This document shows positions 8,367-30,593 of a stretch of DNA of 32,000 nucleotides, in pieces. Within the stretch, counting starts at the first letter, position 1. The number at the start of each line of letters is the position of its first letter. The notes under the pieces are model-generated. The model was not told the origin of the DNA. It was given only the letters and a program-made list of their open reading frames with translations, and ran no database searches. This DNA comes from Mycoplasmoides genitalium G37. GTDB lineage: Bacteria; Bacillota_I; Bacilli_A; Mycoplasmatales; Mycoplasmoidaceae. The position numbers and the translations under genes are program-made. The DNA lies in contig NC_000908.2 in NCBI RefSeq assembly GCF_000027325.1, forward strand, positions 330,001-362,000. Direction: 5' to 3'.

Positions 8367-10529
8367 ATGGCAACCATTCAGGAAATCGAGTGTGATTTTT
8401 TAGCTAAAATAGCACAAAAATTTACTAATGCAGAGATTGAATTAATTAACAAAGCATTCTATCACGCTAAAACTTGGCATGAAAACCAGAAACGGCTTAG
8501 CGGTGAACCTTTTTTTATCCATCCTTTAAGAACGGCATTATCACTAGTTGAATGGAACATGGATCCTATCACTATTTGTGCTGGTTTGTTACATGACATC
8601 ATTGAAGATACAGACCAAACCGAAGCTAATATAGCAATGATTTTTAGCAAAGAAATTGCTGAGCTTGTCACTAAGGTTACAAAGATTACCAATGAATCTA
8701 AAAAGCAACGTCATCTCAAAAATAAAAAGGAGAATCTTAACTTAAAAAGCTTTGTTAACATTGCAATCAATTCTCAACAAGAGATAAATGTAATGGTACT
8801 AAAACTAGCAGATCGACTTGATAACATCGCTTCCATTGAGTTTCTCCCCATTGAAAAGCAAAAGGTAATTGCAAAAGAAACTTTAGAACTTTATGCAAAG
8901 ATTGCTGGGAGGATTGGGATGTATCCTGTTAAAACAAAATTAGCAGATCTTTCATTTAAGGTGTTGGATTTAAAAAACTATGATAACACCCTGTCAAAGA
9001 TTAACAAGCAAAAGGTCTTTTATGACAATGAGTGGGATAACTTCAAACAACAATTAAAAAAAATCTTAGCGCAAAATCAGATAGAATACCAACTTGAAAG
9101 TCGGATTAAAGGCATTTACTCTACATATAAAAAACTAACTGTTCATGAACAGAACATCAGTAAGATCCATGATCTTTTTGCTATCCGCTTAATTACTAAA
9201 TCAGAACTTGATTGTTATCACATCCTTGGTTTAATTCACCTTAATTTTTTAATTGACAGTAAATACTTCAAAGACTATATTGCCTCACCTAAACAAAACC
9301 TTTACCAATCAATTCATACCACTGTTCGTTTAAAAGGGTTAAATGTTGAGATCCAAATTAGAACCCAACAGATGGACAATGTTAGTAAGTTTGGCTTAGC
9401 TAGTCACTGGATCTACAAAGAACAGAAAGAGGGATTGTTAGCACCTGCTTTGCAACTTAATTACCTAGTGACAAAACAAAAACACTCACATGATTTTCTA
9501 AAAAGGATTTTTGGGACTGATATTATCAAGATTAATGTTAGTGCTAGTCATGAACCTAATGTAATTAAGCAAATTAATGTTGATAGCAACAATAAACTCC
9601 TTGATATTGCTTTTGAAAACTATCCCAAGCAATTTGCTAAATTAACCAAAATTGAAATTGATGGGGTTGAGATCAATTCTTTTGATACTAGTGTTGAAAA
9701 TGAGATGCTGATTGAATTTTACTTTGGCAAGAATAACAATTTGAAATCAAAGTGAATTAGGTATATGAATAACCCTATATACCGTGAAAAGGTAAAAAAG
9801 AGCTTGGCTAAACTAGCTAAATCTGGTAGATACAGTGAGTTAGCTTTTTATGAAAAAGAACTGGGTGAAAAACAGTTAAAACTTGCTAGTGAAACTGAAA
9901 TCCAAAAACGCTTAAACACCCTAAGAATTAAAAAAATGAGTGATTACTTAGCGTTAATTGAGTGTACTAACTTTACTAATGATGAACATTTGTTGTTTCT
10001 AGCTAAAAACAACGACAAGTGAAATAAACTAACAAAACCACTTAAGTTTGCTTTTTCAAAAGTAGTTTTTCACAACTCTTACTTTGAACAAATTGAAGGT
10101 ATTTTTATCACCAAAATAGTGATTGAACCATGTTGTAGTAAGATCCCTGATATGCCTGAACAAGTAACTGGTATCTTAACTAAAAACATTTTAAGTGTTC
10201 ACCGTTATGGTTGTAAGAATTTACAAAATAAAAAGCAGTTAAAAATTATCCCGTTATATTGAAATATCCAGCAGTTAAAACTAAAACCACGTAAGTTTCG
10301 CAGTTACATTAACATTAACGGAGTGTGGAGTGAAAAAACCATTAATAAAATCTGTCAAACAATTATTAATGGTGATGGTTATATTGAAAAAATAATTCCC
10401 AAGATCAACAAACAAAAAGATGAATTTGATTTAAACATCACCCTTTTTGTTAATAACTACCAACAACTTCTCACCTTAATGGACCAAATTACCACTAAGA
10501 ATATCAGCTTTAGTTGAAAATACCTTTAG
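8367..10529 (+). CDS. relA: Bifunctional (p)ppGpp synthetase/hydrolase, RelA/SpoT (Rel) family, 720 aa
   Basis: Track ORFs 8367..9755, 9765..10022 and 10323..10517 are in the same frame and joined across TGA. Real TAG at 10527-10529. HD hydrolase motif LLHDIIEDT. Synthetase region GIYSTYKKL...DLFAIRLI...YQSIHTTV. Confidence 0.93.
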
Positions 10530-15181: not shown

Positions 15182-16633
15182 ATGACAAAAAAAACACAAG
15201 ATCTCACTAGTTGGTATGACCAACTGCTAGTTAAAGCAAAGTTAATTTGTCATGGTGAAGTTAAAGGTACAGTTTGTTTTTTAAATAACAGTTGAGGCTT
15301 ATGGATGGAAATCCAACAGCTTTACAATGATGCAATTGCAAATAAAAATCAATTGTCTGCAATTGCTCTAACTAAATTCCAACCAACTACTAGTTTTTGT
15401 TATCAAGTATTCCAAGTACAACTCCCTACCCTTTCTTTTTACAGTGAATATCAAAAGGAAAAAACCCATATCAAAGGTTTTAATCCTGAGCTTTTTTTAA
15501 TTAATCAAGTTGGTCAAAAACAACTCAATGATCCTTTGGTTTTACGACCTACTAGTGAGATTGCTTTTTGCAACTTATGGAAAAAACAAGAGTTATCTTA
15601 CCATGATCTACCTTTAATTTATAACCAGTGAACTCAGGTTTTTCGTGCAGAAAAAAACACCAGACCTTTTTTGAGAAACAGTGAGTTTTACTGACAAGAA
15701 ACTCATGGGCTTTTTGTGGATCAGAGCCAATCTGAACAAGCTGCTATTAGCTTTTGAAATTTATATCAGGATTTAATTATTAACAAACTTTGTATCCCTG
15801 CTTTTGTTGGTTTGAAAAGTGAAAGTGAAAAATTTGCAGGTGCTAAAAACACATGGACAATAGAAGCAATTATGCCTGATGGACAAAGTTTACAATGTGC
15901 CACTAGCCATGATTTAGGTGACACTTTTACAAAGAGTTTTACTATCAGCTATCAGAGTAAAACTAACCAAAAAATGACTCCAAGTAGTTTTAGTTGTGGG
16001 ATGTCAACTAGGATCTTAGGAGCAATTTTTTTAACCCACAGCGATGATTATGGTTTGGTTTTACCTTGGTATCTAGCAAGTAAACAAGTCAAGTTATACC
16101 TGTTTGATAAAAACAATAACCCTAAAACAAGAGCTTTAGCTTTTTTAGTGAAGGATTTTTTAGAAAAACTCAAAATTCGCTTTAGTTTTATAGAAATTAA
16201 CAATCAACTAGGTAAACAACTTTTAAAAGGAGAAATAGAAGGTATTCCATTACAGATGATTGTTGATAATGAAAAAACTATTAACATCTTCAACCGCTTA
16301 ACACGTTTAAAAACCAGCTTAACATTTGCAAATCTCCAAACTGAATTTGTTAATTTAGTTAACAACTACCATACAGAGATGTATAGAAAAGCAAATGATT
16401 TAGTTGAACAAAAACTAGCAAGAGTACAAACTTTAAAGGAAATTGAACAAGCATTCAAAAATAAAAAGGCTGTTTTATGTACCGTGAAGTTAACTGGTGA
16501 ACTTGAACAACACTTAAAGACAAAATACCAAGTTAGTGTTAGGTGTGTTTTTAAAAAGTCAGATGTAACACAAAACTGTCCTTTTACAAATCAACCTTGT
16601 TTTGATTCAGTTTTAATTGCACGTGCTTACTAA
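15182..16633 (+). CDS. proS: Prolyl-tRNA synthetase (class II, short archaeal/eukaryote-like type), 483 aa
   Basis: ATG at 15182 (MTKKTQDLTSWYDQLLVKAKLI...). Track ORFs 15305..15631 and 15812..16633 are in frame with it across TGA. Class II motif region LRPTSEIAFCNLW...FRAEKNTRPFLRNSEF. TAA stop. Confidence 0.92.
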
Positions 16634-19676: not shown

Positions 19677-20260
19677 GACTTTCTCCCCTGAATCGGCAAC
19701 AACAAACCCTTCTCCAACTCCCACACTGCTTCCCTTTCTTCTTCTTCTTCTTCCCCACTCCCCACTTTTTCTAACATCAATGTCGGGGTTAAATCAATGA
19801 TCACTCATCTCAACAAAGAAAACACCCGGTGGGTGTTTACCCCTAACTCTTCACCAGACATTTGAACGGGAGCAGGTTATAGAAAAGCTAATAACAACAA
19901 TAACGGCATCTCCTTGACAAGTGTGTTGCCTAGTAGCAATAGTAGTCAACAGTTTAATCCCAATTCAGATGATAATAAAGTCACTCAAGGTGGTGGCTCC
20001 CCAGCCAAAAAAACAACCACCTATTCCTTTTTACCCAATTCCATCAGTCCCACCAGTGACTGGATCAACGCATTGACTTTTACTAACAAAAATAACCCGC
20101 AGCGCAATCAACTGTTGCTCAGAAGCTTACTAGGAACTATCCCGGTATTGATCAATAAGAGTGGAACGGGAGATGAGTTTACCCATACGAGTGAGCAGAA
20201 ATGGGATAAAACGAATGAAAAAGATGGGAATTTACCTGGGTTTGGGGAGGTGAATGGTGG
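19677..20260 (+). repeat. MgPar block 2: mgpB-like segment from a non-adjacent part of mgpB, in a different frame from block 1
   Basis: Frame p mod 3 = 0 reads DFLPWIGNNKPFSNSHTASLSSSSSSPLPTFSNINVGVKSM...GFGEVNGG continuously under code 4. The similarity I recognise ends about 20260. Confidence 0.8.
19737..19751 (+). repeat. (TCT)5 trinucleotide tract encoding poly-Ser inside the mgpB-like block
   Basis: tct tct tct tct tct, read in the block-2 frame. Confidence 0.9.
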
Positions 20261-20406: not shown

Positions 20407-21780
<1,374 letters not shown>

Positions 21781-21790
21781 AGAAATATTT

Positions 21791-23682
21791 TTATGAGTTT
21801 AAAACAAGGTAATGCAGATAACTAGCTAAATCAACAACTGGAGGTTTTGTAGCCCCATTTCTTAAATCCAAATTATGTAAGTTTTGCTGTTTAAGTAAAT
21901 CCATAAATTTACCATCTTGAACTTTTATCTGTTCTTTTACGTGTAAAGTGAAAAGTAGTTGATTGTCTTTAAATTGAAATAGAGAACCTGGATAATCAGT
22001 ATTTTGAACTAAGTTATAATCCAAATCACCATCAACTATGAACTTGACATCCATTTCACCATTTCATGATGAAGGGATACCAGAAAAAGGTGCAAATCAA
22101 CTAAATAACCCAGTTAATTTGTATCCACCTTGGTACTTTATGTCAATTTCAAATTTAAATTTGTATGGATAATGTTGCCTAAATTCAATTCCATTATTTT
22201 TTCAATCAATGGTTGGATTATTTTCCTTGTTTTCAATTTTTATGCTTGTTAAGTTTAGTTTTATGTCAGTATAGGAAGTTAGCTTTCCTCTTAATCAGTC
22301 AGACATATAAAGACCTTCAAGCCCTTGTCTAGGAAACTGAATTCCTTTTTCACTAAAGGCTTTCTTTGCATTTTCACTTTCATCTTTTTTATTATTTTTG
22401 TAATAATCTGACGTTGCTTTAGTAAAGCTATTAATTAAAAGTGAAAAAGTTTTATTTTTATCAGCAGCAAAAGAAGTTTTTAGAGCATCTATTAGTTGAG
22501 TCTTATCAGTAACATCTTTCTTTTGATTTTTTCAATAATCTTTAAATTCTTTAGCATTTTCAAATGATTTATTAAATTGTTCTTGTTGTTCTTTTAAGCG
22601 CTTAGCTTCCTCTTCTTTTCGCTTAAGTTCTTCTTCTTGTTTTCTTCTTTCCTCAGCTAAAATTCGTTGTTGTTCTTCATAATCAGCTTTAGCTTTTTCA
22701 CGTTCTTTTTTGAATGGTTCAATTATTTCTTTTTCAAATTTTGTTTTAGCTAAATCTAGTTGTTCATCAATTTTTAAAACTGAATTAAAGATATTTGTAT
22801 TGGAAAGAAAAAGTGAATCACTTACAGCAGTTTTAGCTATTGAAGTGAGATCATTTTGATTTTTATCAACAAGTTTATTAATTAGAGGTTTTCAAAACAA
22901 TTGGGTATTTAGATCGTTACCATTAAAGCTATTTTGCAACTCTTGTAAATTCAAAAAATTAGAAGTTTGGGCTTTTAAATCAAATTGCAAGTTAACAGTG
23001 TTGTTACCACCTTCATAATCAACTTCAAAATCCATTTTGATTTCAAAGCTATAACGAATCTTATCTTTAATAACAATGTCATTTTTTTAACCAATTCAAG
23101 ATTAAAGTCTTTTAATTGAATTTTCTTTAAGTTGTATTGATTAAATATTTCAACAATACTTTCGGTAATGTTTAAACCTTTTGGATGCAATTGTGGAAAG
23201 AAATTTTCATTAAGGAATTTAAAAAAATTCTGTGGAACTTTAGGCAATTTATCTTCATCATTAATTGGAAAAATTTTGTTAGTTTCATTAATGCTTGATT
23301 ACAGCCTATTTAATAAATCAACTGTTTTTTTAATACCTGATTTAAAACCACTTAAAAGATGAAAAATATCTATAACATTAAAGTTCCTAGGATAAAATTC
23401 ATTCTTAAATTTCTCTTGAAATAAGTCAAAGTTTTTATCATAATCTTTCTCTTTAGCAATATAGTTTTCTTCTTGCTCTGTTATAGCTGTTTGCTGTTGG
23501 AGTAGAATACTATTTTCTCTACTATTTGTTGTACTTGATTTTCTTAGACTAGGTTGACTTAAATTTGCAGCTGAGCCATTATAGATAGAAGGGACAATAA
23601 GTACACCAGCAGTTAAAGTTGATGCAAAAGAGACAAAGAGAAAAGTTTTAATTTTAAAACGAGATTTTTTGATAGCTTTCAA
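21791..23682 (-). pseudogene. Disrupted gene for a signal-anchored coiled-coil protein (probably MG288, of the MG032/MG096/MG288 paralog family). It has an in-frame TAA and a frameshift at an A7 tract. Its largest intact piece is 21791..23035 (414 aa from ATG)
   Basis: Piece A, 23302-23682: TTG start, MKAIKKSRFKIKTFLFVSFASTLTAGVLIV..., ends at a true TAA at 23299-23301. Piece B continues sensibly in the same frame (SSINETNKIFPINDEDKLPKVPQNFFKFLNENFFPQLHPKGLNITESIVEIFNQYNLKKIQLKDFNLELVKK) up to the T7 tract at 23082-23088. Piece C is in another frame. It is closed by TAA at 23087-23089, right at the tract, and is then open to TAA at 21791-21793 with only TGA interruptions. One extra A would join B to C. 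Confidence 0.7.
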
Positions 23683-24023: not shown

Positions 24024-25846
<1,823 letters not shown>

Positions 25847-27891: not shown

Positions 27892-30593
27892 TATTTATTT
27901 TGAAACAATTCATTAAGCTTTTGAGGGGTAACATTATCCTGAAAAGAACCTCTAAATAACTTATCATTGCCTCCGCCCTTTAAATTAAAACTATTTCTTA
28001 ATTTTTCAATAATGGTGGTAGTTTTATTTCCTATAACAATAAATGAATTACTTTCATTGAATTGATTAATTATCAAGAAATTTTTAGTTTGATTTTGATT
28101 GAAAACATCATGTAGTGTTTGTAGCAATAGTTTAGGTTCTACGTCATTAAAAGTGGCAATTACATAACTTTTATTTTCATCTACTAAGGATAATAATTGC
28201 TTTTTAATTGATAAAGCTAAAGCTTGCTGTGATACTTTATAGTTTTTTGTTTTTAACTGGTTAATATCATTTTTTAAAGCTAATAAAGTATCAGATGCAT
28301 CTCTTAATTGGGTAATTTTTTCAGGTAAGATAAATTTATCTAGCCTTTGTTGCAATTCTTTTAACTCAACTTTAAAAATTGAACTATCAATCAAAGATAG
28401 AACTTTTTCAAGTTCTGATTTTAATTGGATTAATTTTTGATTTTCTGCTTTTAAATAGTTGTTAATAGTTTCATTACTGCTAATGATTTCAATCCTTCAT
28501 CTTCCAGCTCCTAAAGAATAGAAATCAGTAATAAAACAATCTTCAATTGAAGCAGTGTTAGCTACATGAGTGCCACCACACAACTCAACACTATAATCAC
28601 CAAAGCGGATCACTCTTAATATTTCATGTTGAGAATATTCCTCTTCAAAATAAGCAATTGCATTTAGTTTTTGACTCCCTTCAAAATCAGTAAAAATCTC
28701 TTTTGAGCTTATTTTTTGTTTAATCAAAGAGCGAATTTTATTTTCTACTTTCTCAAGTTCATTTCTTGTTAAATGACGATTCAAATTAAAGTCAATAGTT
28801 GCTTTTTGCGCAGATTTAAAAGCACCACTTTGTTTAATAAGTGGATCAATTTCTTTTTGTAAAGCTGCATGTAAAAGGTGTTCTAAACTATGGTTGTTAG
28901 CAGCAAGTTTTCTTCAAGTTTCATCATGTGATAAAGTTACTTGATCATTGAGTTTAAAACTACCTACTAAAAAGTAGTGGAAGTGTTGTTTATTAGGTCC
29001 TTTAAATACACCTTGAAAACTGATTTTTTGATCATTATTATTAGAATGATTAATGCAACTTCCTTCATCATATCTCTGTCCTCCAGAAGTAGCATATAAA
29101 ACTGTTTGGTCAAAAACTACATAACCACTTTGATTATTAAGTTCTTTAACTGGTAAATAATTTTCATCAAAAAGACCAATTACCTTAGCATTAATTTTAT
29201 TTTTGTGATAAAAAAAAGTACTTTTAGTTTTGAAATTAACTAAATTAATATTTTGTTTTTCAAAATTTATAGTTTGGTTATTTTGCTTAGAGATAGAACG
29301 ATGTTTGGCCATTAACTGATCAAATACTGTTCAATCAATAGTTAAACCTTTTTGATTAACTAGTTCTCTTATTATTTCAACAGGAAAACCGTATGTTTCG
29401 TTCAATTGAAATGTTAATTGGGGAGTTAGAGTATTGTTTTTAACACTTTTTTCAAACAGCACTAAACCTAAATCAATCGTTTTATTAAATGCATTAATCT
29501 CTTTTAAAACTACCTGTTTAACAGTTTCATTTTTAGCTTTTAAATGTTGATAATAATTCTCATATGAAGCGATGATTTCATCTATTATCTTTTCAATAAA
29601 TGCTAAGTTTAATTGCAATTTCTTACAAGCTATTAAAGCACGTCTTAAAAGTCTTCTTACTACATAATTTCTCTCATTAGGACCAGGTAAAACTCCTTCT
29701 GAAATGGTAAAAGTGATTGCTTTAAAGTGATCAGCAATAATCCGAAAATAACTCTGTTCTTTCACTTTTTGAGGATCGAATGTAAAGTAAGAGTTGGGAT
29801 CATATTTAAATGGACAAAAAGCTTCAATTATTTTGATTAGCTTTAAAAAGATGTCAGTATCAAAATTGGTTGGACTATTTTGTAATACTGAAACAAGTCT
29901 TTCTATTCCAGCACCTGTATCAATATTTTTTTGAGCAAGTTCTGTATAGTTGCCATTACCATCATTATTAAATTGACTAAAAACAATGTTTCATATCTCA
30001 ACATAACGATCATTTTCAATGTCCTCAAAGAAAAGTTTTTCACCAATTTTTTTAGGATCAAATTTCTCACCACGATCATAATAGATTTCAGTGCAAGGTC
30101 CACAAGGTCCTAAACCTAAGTCTCAAAAGTTACGACTTTTGTCACACTTAATAATGTGATTTTTATCAATTTTATGCTTAATTCATCTTTTATAAGTAGT
30201 TTCATCATCTTCATAAACAGTGATATAAAAACGCTTAGGATCTAGCTGATAATAATTAACTAAAAGATCAAAAGCAAAATCAATTGCTTCTGTTTTAAAA
30301 TAATCACCGATTGAAAAATTTCCAAGCATCTCAAACAAAGTTTGATGTCTTGAAGTAAAACCCACATTTTCAATATCATTTACCCTTAAACATATCTGTG
30401 CATTAACAAGGCGTTTAGATGGTGGTGTTTTTCTAGCACTGAAATAATCTTTTAAAGTAGCAACTCCTGAATTGATTCATAATAATGATGGGTCGTTGAT
30501 CGGAATTAGTGATTTTGAAGCTAAAACCAGATGGTCTTTCTTTGCAAAATAATCTAATCAGGTTTGCCTTACTTTATCAGTTGTTCAATTCAT
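27891..30593 (-). CDS. alaS: Alanyl-tRNA synthetase, 900 aa
   Basis: ATG at 30593 ([31 protein letters not shown]...). Track ORFs 27891..28394, 28497..28784, 28914..29312, 29331..29765 and 30183..30365 all lie in its frame. Motifs [14 protein letters not shown] and the editing-domain CGGTHV. The TAG stop shares 1 nt with the ruvX GTG. Confidence 0.93.

What the first reader, a model, noticed from the sequence alone, without database searches (positions are those of the whole stretch)
23082..23088. Homopolymeric A7/T7 tract at the exact frame switch of the gene beside the MgPar
In mRNA sense the sequence is GTT AAA AAA ATG. The upstream frame reads plausibly up to the tract, then turns into improbable sequence and stops 36 codons later at 22975. 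The other frame is closed by TAA at 23087-23089, at the upstream edge of the tract, and is then open for 432 codons to the real stop. One extra A, or a -1 slip on the A run, fuses the two into ...NLELVKKNDIVIKDKIRYSFEIKMDFEVDYEGG.... This is the signature of slipped-strand phase variation, or of transcriptional or ribosomal slippage.
Basis: seen in the sequence. Interest (0 to 1): 0.65.

Follow-up and report, generated by a model that had tools for sequence, protein, structure and literature searches.

The report
Frameshifted poly-A tract in broken MG288
The A7 run is where one A was lost from an A8 run in the Mycoplasma genitalium surface-protein gene MG288, which in this genome also carries an upstream stop codon, so it is a doubly broken gene copy and not a working on/off switch, although the gene is broken and repaired in varied ways in other strains.

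Summary
On the minus strand, GTT AAAAAAA TG (23088-23082) separates a frame that dies at 22975 from a 431-codon frame ending at 21791. Adding one A gives ...LELVKKNDIVIKDKIRY..., which is exactly the sequence of natural intact 631-aa MG288 alleles in other M. genitalium strains; all of these have A8.

The gene encodes an N-terminal membrane anchor, DUF240, a coiled coil and DUF237 (MG032/MG096/MG288 family). It is CAA, an invariant Gln, in intact alleles. A7 to A8 therefore cannot restore the full protein here.

TAA and A7 travel together in every G37-like sequence fetched (8 loci; the ORF is on at least 23 contigs). A7 also occurs in one deeply divergent allele (M6282). That sequence differs from an Illumina assembly by this single base over 4.45 kb.

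Other strains carry different lesions: indels in and outside homopolymers, and nonsense codons. Two frame-restoring "scars" exist.

A7 runs are ordinary here (41 in 32 kb). I found no support for programmed recoding.

Verdict: this is a slipped-strand deletion fixed in a two-hit pseudogene. Species-level reversible silencing is plausible but unproven.

The parts
23302..23682 (-). N-terminal fragment of MG288: TTG start, 127 codons (MKAIKKSRFKIK-TFLFVSFASTLTAGVLIV...), with a basic n-region plus hydrophobic anchor and the first part of DUF240. Annotated elsewhere as a separate 127-aa hypothetical protein (WP_029329864.1).
   Evidence: The exact 127-aa sequence is in the collection on 32 contigs. 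Pfam DUF240 spans residues 75-305 of the repaired protein.
23299..23301 (-). Lesion 1: in-frame TAA nonsense codon. It is CAA (Gln128) in every intact allele, and this Gln is invariant in the family alignment.
   Evidence: T versus C at 23301; Q128 invariant; a single C>T reproduces the 127-aa product.
23089..23298 (-). Continuation of the same reading frame after the TAA (70 codons, SSINETNKIF...DFNLELV), up to the tract. It is the central part of DUF240.
23082..23088 (-). Lesion 2, the finding: an A7 run in mRNA sense (T7 on the plus strand). It is A8, encoding Lys-Lys-Asn, in all alleles that read through, so this is a 1-nt contraction.
22975..23081 (-). Out-of-frame tail read by the upstream frame after the A7 run (MTLLLKIRFVIALKSKWILKLIMKVVTTLLTCNLI, then stop).
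   Evidence: The same tail terminates protein P0023 of strain M6282.
21791..23035 (-). The 414-aa ORF annotated as MG288 (UniProt P47530 / WP_041360951.1). It starts at the first ATG (MDFEV...) after the frame switch. It contains the C-terminal third of DUF240, a Glu/Lys/Arg-rich coiled coil and DUF237. It lacks the membrane anchor.
23325..23331 (-). A second A7 run in the same gene (GGT ATT AAA AAA ACA). It is A8 in one Illumina assembly (L001, ERR486851).
23221..23227 (-). A T7 run in mRNA sense (CAG AAT TTT TTT AAA). A T6 version explains the truncated 169-aa protein P0034 from another assembly.
23393..23398 (-). Frameshift 'scar'. The window reads GAA-TTTT--ATCC (..NEFYPRNF..). The type-2 allele reads GAAGTTTTAGATCC (..NEVLDPRNF..). 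The out-of-frame intermediate GAA-TTTTAGATCC (NEF-stop) still exists in strain L001.
   Evidence: (P0021, P0010).
22628..22649 (-). GAA/AAG-rich triplet repeat in the coiled-coil segment, with an in-frame +AAG polymorphism (EERRKQ versus EERRRKQ) in other strains.

Best explanation
The window carries the G37-type allele of Mycoplasma genitalium MG288. This gene normally encodes a 631-aa protein: an N-terminal membrane anchor, DUF240, a coiled coil and DUF237. The ancestral, functional allele has an A8 run encoding Lys-Lys-Asn. In this lineage one A was lost, most likely by replication slippage (the mechanism is inferred), which shifts the frame. An independent C>T change 71 codons upstream turned the invariant Gln128 codon into TAA. 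The locus is therefore a two-hit pseudogene that annotation splits into a 127-aa and a 414-aa ORF. Regaining A8 would not restore the anchored full-length protein. Across the species MG288 is dispensable or conditionally counter-selected, and different strains inactivate it by different indels and nonsense mutations. At least twice the frame was restored by a nearby second indel. Shown here: both lesions, the A8 state of intact alleles, the linkage and stability of TAA+A7, the heterogeneous lesions in other strains, and the scars. Inferred: the slippage mechanism, surface exposure of the protein, and the direction and cause of selection.
For: One Pfam DUF240 match runs unbroken across both lesions of the repaired protein (residues 75-305; DUF237 at 467-593). 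The family alignment is colinear and gap-free at the junction, and Gln128 is invariant. Intact 631-aa alleles exist in several genomes (M2288 CP003773, CP145105/6, CM142914 and others), all with CAA and A8. Of the 22 fetched loci, 13 are A8 and 9 are A7. Eight of the 9 A7 loci carry TAA and the linked C at 23164, including G37-length CP159789, M2321 CP003770 and five Illumina assemblies. The 414-aa ORF is on at least 23 contigs. The same lineage shows further decay: an extra CAA>TAA gives 286-aa plus 118-aa products. Other strains carry different lesions: a G deletion giving TAG, A7>A8 at 23325-31, T7>T6, T5>T4, non-repeat 1-nt indels, and a +A at 22413. The paralogue MG096 is 650-651 aa in all 15 listed members from the same genomes, so MG288 breakage is gene-specific and not a general assembly error. 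dN/dS between the two intact allele types is 0.33, so the protein has been under purifying selection. The tract itself is unexceptional: five of the six runs of 8 or more in the window lie in intact ORFs (relA, proS, p37, p29, alaS). At the homologous site the other family members fetched (one from M. pneumoniae, MG096 of M. genitalium, and P0005 of unidentified species) have only A6 or A4.
Against: A7 also occurs on a deeply divergent (type-2) allele in M6282 (CP003771). That sequence differs from Illumina assembly ERR486831 only by A7 versus A8 over 4,450 bp. This is what a fast switch would produce, and it fits a hypermutable tract better than a one-off decay event. Frame-restoring second-site indels suggest selection to regain the protein, so 'pseudogene' may understate the biology at species level. 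I could not examine reads, RNA or protein, so minority A8 subpopulations in G37 cannot be excluded.
Confidence: 0.8

Rival explanations
1. The A8/A7 run is a true contingency (phase-variation) switch. It flips at high frequency within M. genitalium populations, turning a surface protein on (A8) and off (A7), as in M. hominis vaa. The G37 lineage is a copy caught in the OFF state that later became locked by the TAA.
For: It has the same geometry as vaa: A8 ON, A7 or A9 OFF, switching at 1e-3 to 1e-4 (PMC524362). A7 is present on two allele types that differ at about 150 sites, with the flanking markers 23164 and 22999 not shared. L014 and L025 are identical over 4,450 bp except at this run, while the 8 other runs of 7 or more agree. 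Other homopolymers in the gene also vary. Compensatory scars show that the frame is regained. The N-terminal anchor suggests a surface location. M. genitalium lacks mismatch repair (established knowledge, not tested here).
Against: In this window A8 cannot restore the full protein because of the TAA. A7 is invariant in all 8 TAA-haplotype loci fetched (the ORF is on at least 23 contigs), even though the tract is no longer under selection there. Only A7 and A8 are seen, never A9. Many inactivating events lie outside repeats or are nonsense mutations, which indicates general loss of function and not a dedicated switch. A8 runs sit in housekeeping genes of the same window. The tract is absent from the other family members fetched. 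The M6282 A7 could be a homopolymer sequencing error, because the platform of CP003771 could not be checked.
Confidence: 0.15
2. The DNA stays A7, but RNA polymerase slippage or -1 ribosomal frameshifting on the A run produces some fused protein (programmed or compensatory recoding).
For: A runs are slippery for both RNA polymerase and tRNA-Lys (established knowledge). The RNA just downstream (23081-22990) folds better than shuffled controls: -20.9 kcal/mol, z = -2.9, with 1 of 200 shuffles as good.
Against: Intact alleles encode the fusion directly with A8, so nothing needs recoding. The split arrangement is not conserved. Bacterial transcriptional slippage is documented on runs of about 9 A/T (PMC5009743), and this run is 7. 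The zero frame reads GUU AAA AAA AUG, i.e. U AAA AAA, which is not a canonical X XXY YYZ. The main 13-bp stem starts 31 nt after the run, not at the usual 5-9 nt. Any fused product would begin after the TAA, so it would lack the anchor and the first 128 residues.
Confidence: 0.04
3. The A7 is a sequencing or assembly error in the window, and the true sequence is A8.
For: Homopolymers are classic error sites.
Against: The same A7, linked to the same TAA and the same SNP at 23164, is found in independent complete genomes (CP159789, CP003770) and in five independent Illumina assemblies.
Confidence: 0.01

Closest known systems
Mycoplasma hominis vaa adhesin gene poly-A switch (Zhang & Wise 1997, as summarised in PMC524362)
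   Same: A short poly-A run lies inside the coding region of a mycoplasma surface-protein gene. A8 is in frame and A7 is out of frame. The mechanism is slipped-strand mispairing in an organism without mismatch repair.
   Different: For vaa, reversible switching at 1e-3 to 1e-4 was shown in clonal populations, and the tract sits at the 5' end. Here switching is not demonstrated, the run is 31% into the gene, and the window copy carries an additional nonsense codon, so it cannot switch on.
Reversible gene silencing by frameshift indels and 'frameshift scars' in Mycobacterium tuberculosis (PMC8339072); homopolymer variants in glpK (PMC6667613)
   Same: A non-essential or conditionally costly gene is disrupted by 1-nt indels, often in 7-8 nt homopolymers. 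The frame is later restored by a nearby second indel that leaves a few altered residues. MG288 shows two such scars: EVLDP to EFYP, with the intermediate still extant, and WKPL to LKTS in CM142914 relative to CM142909/11/12/17.
   Different: The organism and the gene differ. The sample here is about two dozen loci, with no phylogeny-wide test for selection. Several of the genomes are Nanopore-only assemblies.
Ordinary unitary pseudogene in a reduced genome
   Same: There are two independent disabling mutations, further decay within the lineage, and intact copies in conspecific strains.
   Different: The long-term dN/dS of intact alleles is 0.33, and frame-restoring events argue that the gene is still useful in some settings.
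Transcriptional-slippage rescue of poly-A frameshifts in Buchnera and Blochmannia; programmed -1 frameshifting (dnaX, IS elements) (review PMC5009743)
   Same: An A run sits at a frame junction in an AT-rich reduced genome.
   Different: Those cases use longer runs (about 9 or more) or canonical heptamers with stimulators, and they are conserved. Here the run is 7, the arrangement is strain-specific, and an upstream stop makes rescue pointless.

Membership tests
MG032/MG096/MG288 protein family (DUF240 + DUF237) | Pfam DUF240 followed by DUF237, above the gathering thresholds | tested here: met
   DUF240 E=1.6e-65 (residues 75-305 of the repaired protein) and DUF237 E=1.7e-40 (467-593). UniProt P47530 is identical to the 414-aa ORF. 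The family is tiny, with 17 hits among 1.84 billion representatives.
Homopolymer (slipped-strand) phase-variable contingency gene | A repeat tract whose length change shifts the reading frame, with length variants among isolates | tested here: met
   A7 in 9 and A8 in 13 of the 22 fetched loci. A7 occurs on two allele types.
Homopolymer (slipped-strand) phase-variable contingency gene | The ON length restores a complete functional product in the same genome | tested here: not met
   In the window, and in all 8 G37-like loci, a TAA at 23301-23299 precedes the tract. The feature is met in other strains (631-aa alleles).
Homopolymer (slipped-strand) phase-variable contingency gene | Reversible high-frequency switching within a clonal population | not testable with these tools
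   Read-level or colony-level data are needed. The only hint is that L014 and L025 differ by this single base over 4.45 kb, which could also be a sequencing error.
Homopolymer (slipped-strand) phase-variable contingency gene | Tract unusually long for the genome, or conserved as a tract among homologues | tested here: not met
   A8 runs also occur in intact relA, proS, p37, p29 and alaS ORFs. The other family members fetched have A6 or A4 at the homologous site. Runs of 8 or more are, however, depleted overall (6 observed, 26 expected).
Programmed -1 ribosomal frameshift | Canonical slippery heptamer X XXY YYZ in the zero frame | tested here: not met
   The zero frame is GUU AAA AAA AUG, so the heptamers are U AAA AAA or A AAA AAU(G). 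Tandem re-pairing is imperfect (sequence).
Programmed -1 ribosomal frameshift | Stimulatory RNA structure 5-9 nt downstream | tested here: inconclusive
   The downstream 92 nt fold at -20.9 kcal/mol with z = -2.9, but the main 13-bp stem begins 31 nt after the run. There is too little variation to test covariation.
Programmed -1 ribosomal frameshift | Two-frame arrangement conserved across strains and homologues | tested here: not met
   13 of 22 loci read straight through the tract with A8. All four family members in the alignment are colinear single ORFs.
Transcriptional slippage site | A/T run long enough for RNA polymerase slippage (about 9 or more in documented bacterial cases) | tested here: not met
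   The run is 7. The criterion is taken from PMC5009743.
Pseudogene | Disabling mutations relative to intact conspecific alleles, with further decay in the lineage | tested here: met
   TAA plus frameshift. An additional nonsense mutation appears in derivatives P0008 and P0016.
Pseudogene | No functional product | not testable with these tools
   I found no proteomic or transcript data for MG_288 in the searchable literature.

The most novel reading that the evidence does not exclude
MG288 is a genuinely switchable surface-protein gene of M. genitalium. It is repeatedly silenced by 1-nt indels, fastest at the A8 run, and re-activated either by reversion or by nearby compensating indels, under fluctuating host pressure. 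That would be a repeat/indel-based on/off system in a pathogen whose antigenic variation is otherwise attributed to MgPar recombination. The gene sits directly beside MgPar8, in a recombination hotspot that can also shuffle ON and OFF alleles between strains.
Probability: 0.25. Interest if true: 0.6.

Novelty: new member of a known kind. Interest (0 to 1): 0.4.

Why it matters
For this window, the result corrects the annotation. The 127-aa 'hypothetical protein' and the 414-aa 'MG288' are two pieces of one dead 631-aa gene. The type strain G37, which is the basis of minimal-genome and whole-cell models, therefore lacks a protein that some clinical strains have. At species level, the mix of intact, differently broken and frame-repaired alleles marks MG288 as a candidate host-interaction or immune-target gene under on/off selection. 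It is an uncharacterised, lineage-restricted, membrane-anchored protein next to MgPar8. If the A8 run switches within infections, this would add a second, simpler variation mechanism to M. genitalium biology and would be easy to test by amplicon sequencing.

Tried and rejected
1. The search for related loci on genome contigs with the family alignment found no confirmed locus. I fetched family-member DNA through the look-up of encoding contigs instead.
2. A scan of metagenome contigs for the tract flank gave 0 hits.
3. A PDB sequence search with the intact protein gave no hit.
4. AlphaFold2 on a 5-sequence alignment of the paralogue gave mean pLDDT 43.8 and pTM 0.25. That is too poor for a fold search, so none was run. 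Only an N-terminal helix, a long central helix and beta-rich DUF240/DUF237 parts can be read from it.
5. Literature: no paper in the library discusses MG_288 variation. Only the recombination table in the Fookes 2017 supplement lists it. McGowin 2012 (the sequencing method for CP003771) is not held. The ERR-to-strain mapping was not found.
6. My first reading of the L002 lesion as T5>T4 was wrong. At DNA level it is a non-homopolymer 1-nt deletion (CAATATG to CAATTG) relative to the type-2 reference.
7. The tail-only matching was too permissive for P0023 and P0031. For those I relied on the DNA alignments instead.
8. A sequencing error in the window is rejected by the independent assemblies.
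9. P0014 (a frameshift at the RQGLEG site) could not be reproduced by any single-nt change, and its mutation is left unclassified.

Full report
**Identity of the window.** The window has 32% G+C and needs genetic code 4 (TGA = Trp). With that code it gives long ORFs in the order known for Mycoplasma genitalium around MgPar8: pdh genes, relA, proS, MG288, then a p37-like CypI gene, an ABC ATPase, and alaS. The gene names are cross-checked by the recombination table of Fookes et al., which lists relA, greA, proS, MG_284-MG_291 and alaS in block 337080-364726 with MgPar8 (PMC5745988 supplement). The finding lies in the minus-strand gene next to the MgPar.

**Check of the observation.** It is correct in every detail.
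- In mRNA sense the sequence is CTT GAA TTG GTT AAA AAA ATG, with the A7 at 23088-23082.
- The incoming frame reads ...DFNLELVKK and then 35 implausible codons to a stop at 22975.
- The other frame is closed by TAA at 23089-23087 and is then open for 431 codons to the stop at 21791.
- Inserting one A gives ...NLELVKKNDIVIKDKIRYSFEIKMDFEVDYEGG....
- The tract is not rare. The window has 41 A/T runs of 7 or more (first-order Markov expectation 63 +/- 8) and six runs of 8 or more (expectation 26 +/- 5), and none of 9 or more.
- What matters is its position, not its existence.

**What the gene is.**
- When both interruptions are bridged, the repaired protein gives one unbroken Pfam DUF240 match (residues 75-305, E=1.6e-65) and one DUF237 match (467-593, E=1.7e-40).
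- This is the MG032/MG096/MG288 family. The 414-aa ORF that starts at the first ATG after the tract (23035) is identical to UniProt P47530, 'Uncharacterized protein MG288'.
- The family is tiny and lineage-restricted: 17 hits among 1.84 billion cluster representatives. It has no relative in the PDB by sequence.
- The true N-terminus is a TTG start at 23682, followed by KKSRFKIK and an 18-residue hydrophobic stretch without a lipobox cysteine. This is probably an uncleaved membrane anchor that puts the rest of the protein outside the cell. That is an inference; PMC524362 notes that most mycoplasmas lack signal peptidase I.
- The middle of the protein is a Glu/Lys/Arg-rich helix.
- An AlphaFold model of the paralogue was too poor (pLDDT 43.8) to say more.

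The 'upstream frame' is itself interrupted. An in-frame TAA sits at 23301-23299, 71 codons before the tract. In every intact allele this codon is CAA, and the Gln is invariant in an alignment of the two intact MG288 allele types with three other family members. A single C>T change reproduces the 127-aa product. The window copy is therefore split into three pieces. Restoring A8 would give at best a protein that starts after the TAA, without the anchor and without the first 128 residues.

**Comparison with other strains.** I fetched DNA for 22 MG288 loci.
- Intact 631-aa alleles exist in M2288 (CP003773), CP145105/6, CM142914 and others.
- Across the 22 loci the tract is A8 in 13 and A7 in 9.
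- Eight of the nine A7 loci are the G37-type haplotype. Their A7 is perfectly linked to TAA and to a C at 23164. They include a 580,076-bp genome (CP159789), M2321 (CP003770) and five independent Illumina assemblies.
- The 414-aa ORF is recorded on at least 23 contigs and the 127-aa ORF on 32.
- The A7 is therefore real, not a sequencing error, and it is stable in that lineage.

**Recurrence at the tract.**
- MG288 exists as two deeply diverged allele types that differ at about 150 sites, mostly in the 3' part (dS 0.45 there against 0.04 in the 5' part; dN/dS 0.33 overall).
- The ninth A7 locus, M6282 (CP003771), is type 2. The nearest flanking markers (23164 and 22999) differ from the G37 type, so its A7 is most simply an independent contraction.
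- Over 4,450 bp it differs from Illumina assembly ERR486831 only by A7 versus A8 at this run, while eight other runs of 7 or more agree.
- This is either real slippage between near-identical isolates or a homopolymer error in CP003771. I could not obtain the sequencing method.

**The gene is broken in many ways, not only at the tract.** Observed in other strains:
- a G deletion that creates TAG at 23398;
- A7 to A8 at the other run, 23331-23325;
- T7 to T6 at 23227-23221;
- T5 to T4 in the DIFHLL codons;
- 1-nt indels outside homopolymers (CTCTAAT to CTCAAT, CAATATG to CAATTG, and +T in AAAATAATCC);
- a +A at 22413;
- a second CAA to TAA nonsense codon arising on the G37-type allele.

As a control, the paralogue MG096 is 650-651 aa in all 15 listed members from the same genomes. 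MG288 breakage is therefore gene-specific and not a general assembly artefact. Several of the newer genomes are probably Nanopore-only (R10.4.1 plus Medaka, PMC12852374) and deserve caution.

**Frame-restoring scars.** Two intact alleles carry the footprint of a frameshift that was later compensated.
- (i) Type 2 reads GAAGTTTTAGATCC (NEVLDPRNF). Strain L001 lacks the G and hits TAG. Type 1, including the window, additionally lacks AG and is back in frame (NEFYPRNF).
- (ii) Five genomes (CM142909/11/12/17 and CP199926) have the CTCTAAT to CTCAAT deletion, which gives 281-aa and 368-aa pieces. CM142914 shares their rare G1365A marker and the same deletion, but has an extra T in the T4 run 9 nt upstream. 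That restores a 631-aa ORF with WKPL changed to LKTS.

This resembles the 'frameshift scars' described for reversible gene silencing in M. tuberculosis (PMC8339072). Together with dN/dS = 0.33, it argues that the protein is useful in some settings.

**Is it a phase-variation switch?** The geometry matches the classic M. hominis vaa switch: A8 ON, A7 or A9 OFF, at 1e-3 to 1e-4 (PMC524362). Arguments against a dedicated switch are:
- A8 runs also sit inside intact housekeeping ORFs of this window (relA, proS, alaS, and the p37-like and ABC ATPase genes).
- The other family members fetched have only A6 or A4 at the homologous site.
- Many of the inactivating events are not in repeats.
- A7 has not drifted in any of the G37-type loci fetched (the ORF is on at least 23 contigs), although the tract is no longer under selection there.

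For this window the switch reading fails outright because of the TAA. For the species it remains open; I put it at about 0.25.

**Recoding rivals.**
- Programmed or compensatory slippage at the RNA or ribosome level is unlikely. Intact alleles encode the fusion directly, and the split arrangement is strain-specific.
- The run is shorter than the roughly 9 A/T on which bacterial transcriptional slippage is documented (PMC5009743).
- U AAA AAA is not a canonical heptamer in the zero frame.
- The downstream 92 nt do fold better than shuffled controls (-20.9 kcal/mol, z = -2.9). However, the main stem starts 31 nt after the run, and I chose the test window arbitrarily.
- Any fused product would still lack the N-terminal 128 residues.

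**Conclusion.** The tract is the scar of a 1-nt contraction of an A8 run in MG288. It is fixed, together with an upstream nonsense codon, in the G37/M2321 lineage. The locus here is a two-hit pseudogene that annotation splits into two 'genes'. The broader pattern across strains, with recurrent, heterogeneous and sometimes reverted inactivation of a membrane-anchored protein gene beside MgPar8, is the more interesting result. I did not find it discussed in the searchable literature.

Noticed in passing
window 23299-23301 (minus strand): There is an in-frame TAA nonsense codon 71 codons upstream of the tract. It is CAA (an invariant Gln) in all intact alleles and is perfectly linked to A7 and to a C at 23164 in the G37-type haplotype.
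   Followed up: yes
L014 (CP003771.1, M6282) versus L025 (Logan ERR486831), 4450 bp: The two sequences are identical except for A7 versus A8 at the finding tract. Eight other runs of 7 or more agree. This is either real slippage between near-identical isolates or a homopolymer error in the deposited genome.
   Followed up: partly
L019 (CM142914) versus L020-L024 (CM142909/11/12/17, CP199926); window equivalent about 22880-22900: This is a compensated frameshift. A 1-nt deletion (CTCTAAT to CTCAAT) splits the gene in five genomes. One related genome adds a T to a T4 run 9 nt upstream and regains a 631-aa ORF, with WKPL changed to LKTS.
   Followed up: yes
window 23393-23398: The allele difference EFYP versus EVLDP is a -1 plus -2 indel pair. 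The out-of-frame intermediate (TAG stop) is still present in strain ERR486851, where the nearby A7 run at 23325-23331 is A8.
   Followed up: yes
window 21791-22650 versus L002/L014/L018: There are two deeply diverged MG288 allele types. dS is 0.45 in the 3' part against 0.04 in the 5' part, and dN/dS is about 0.3. This mosaic is consistent with recombination. Fookes et al. place MG_288 in a recombination hotspot block with MgPar8. I did not determine the source of the divergent 3' segment (a paralogue or another lineage).
   Followed up: partly
window 22628-22649: There is a GAA/AAG triplet repeat in the coiled-coil segment, with an in-frame +AAG polymorphism (an extra Arg) in several strains.
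   Followed up: partly
window 21453-21484 and 19736-19753: There are perfect trinucleotide arrays, (TAG)x10.7 and (TTC)x6, inside the MgPar region next to MG288.
   Followed up: no
window 9056-9063, 15187-15194, 24421-24428, 25598-25605, 29210-29217: Five of the six runs of 8 or more A/T in the window lie inside intact ORFs (relA, proS, the p37-like gene, the ABC ATPase gene, alaS). Runs of 8 or more are about 4-fold depleted relative to a Markov expectation, and none reaches 9.
   Followed up: partly
window 22990-23081 (minus strand RNA): The 92 nt downstream of the tract fold at -20.9 kcal/mol (z = -2.9 against shuffles). A 13-bp stem is formed by two copies of the quasi-palindromic UUUGAA motif. 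It is probably incidental.
   Followed up: partly
L015 (M. pneumoniae JBLTZR010000008.1): In M. pneumoniae two DUF240/DUF237 genes lie in tandem next to a type I restriction S-subunit gene (Methylase_S) and an MG185/MG260-family lipoprotein gene. This context differs from that of MG288.
   Followed up: no
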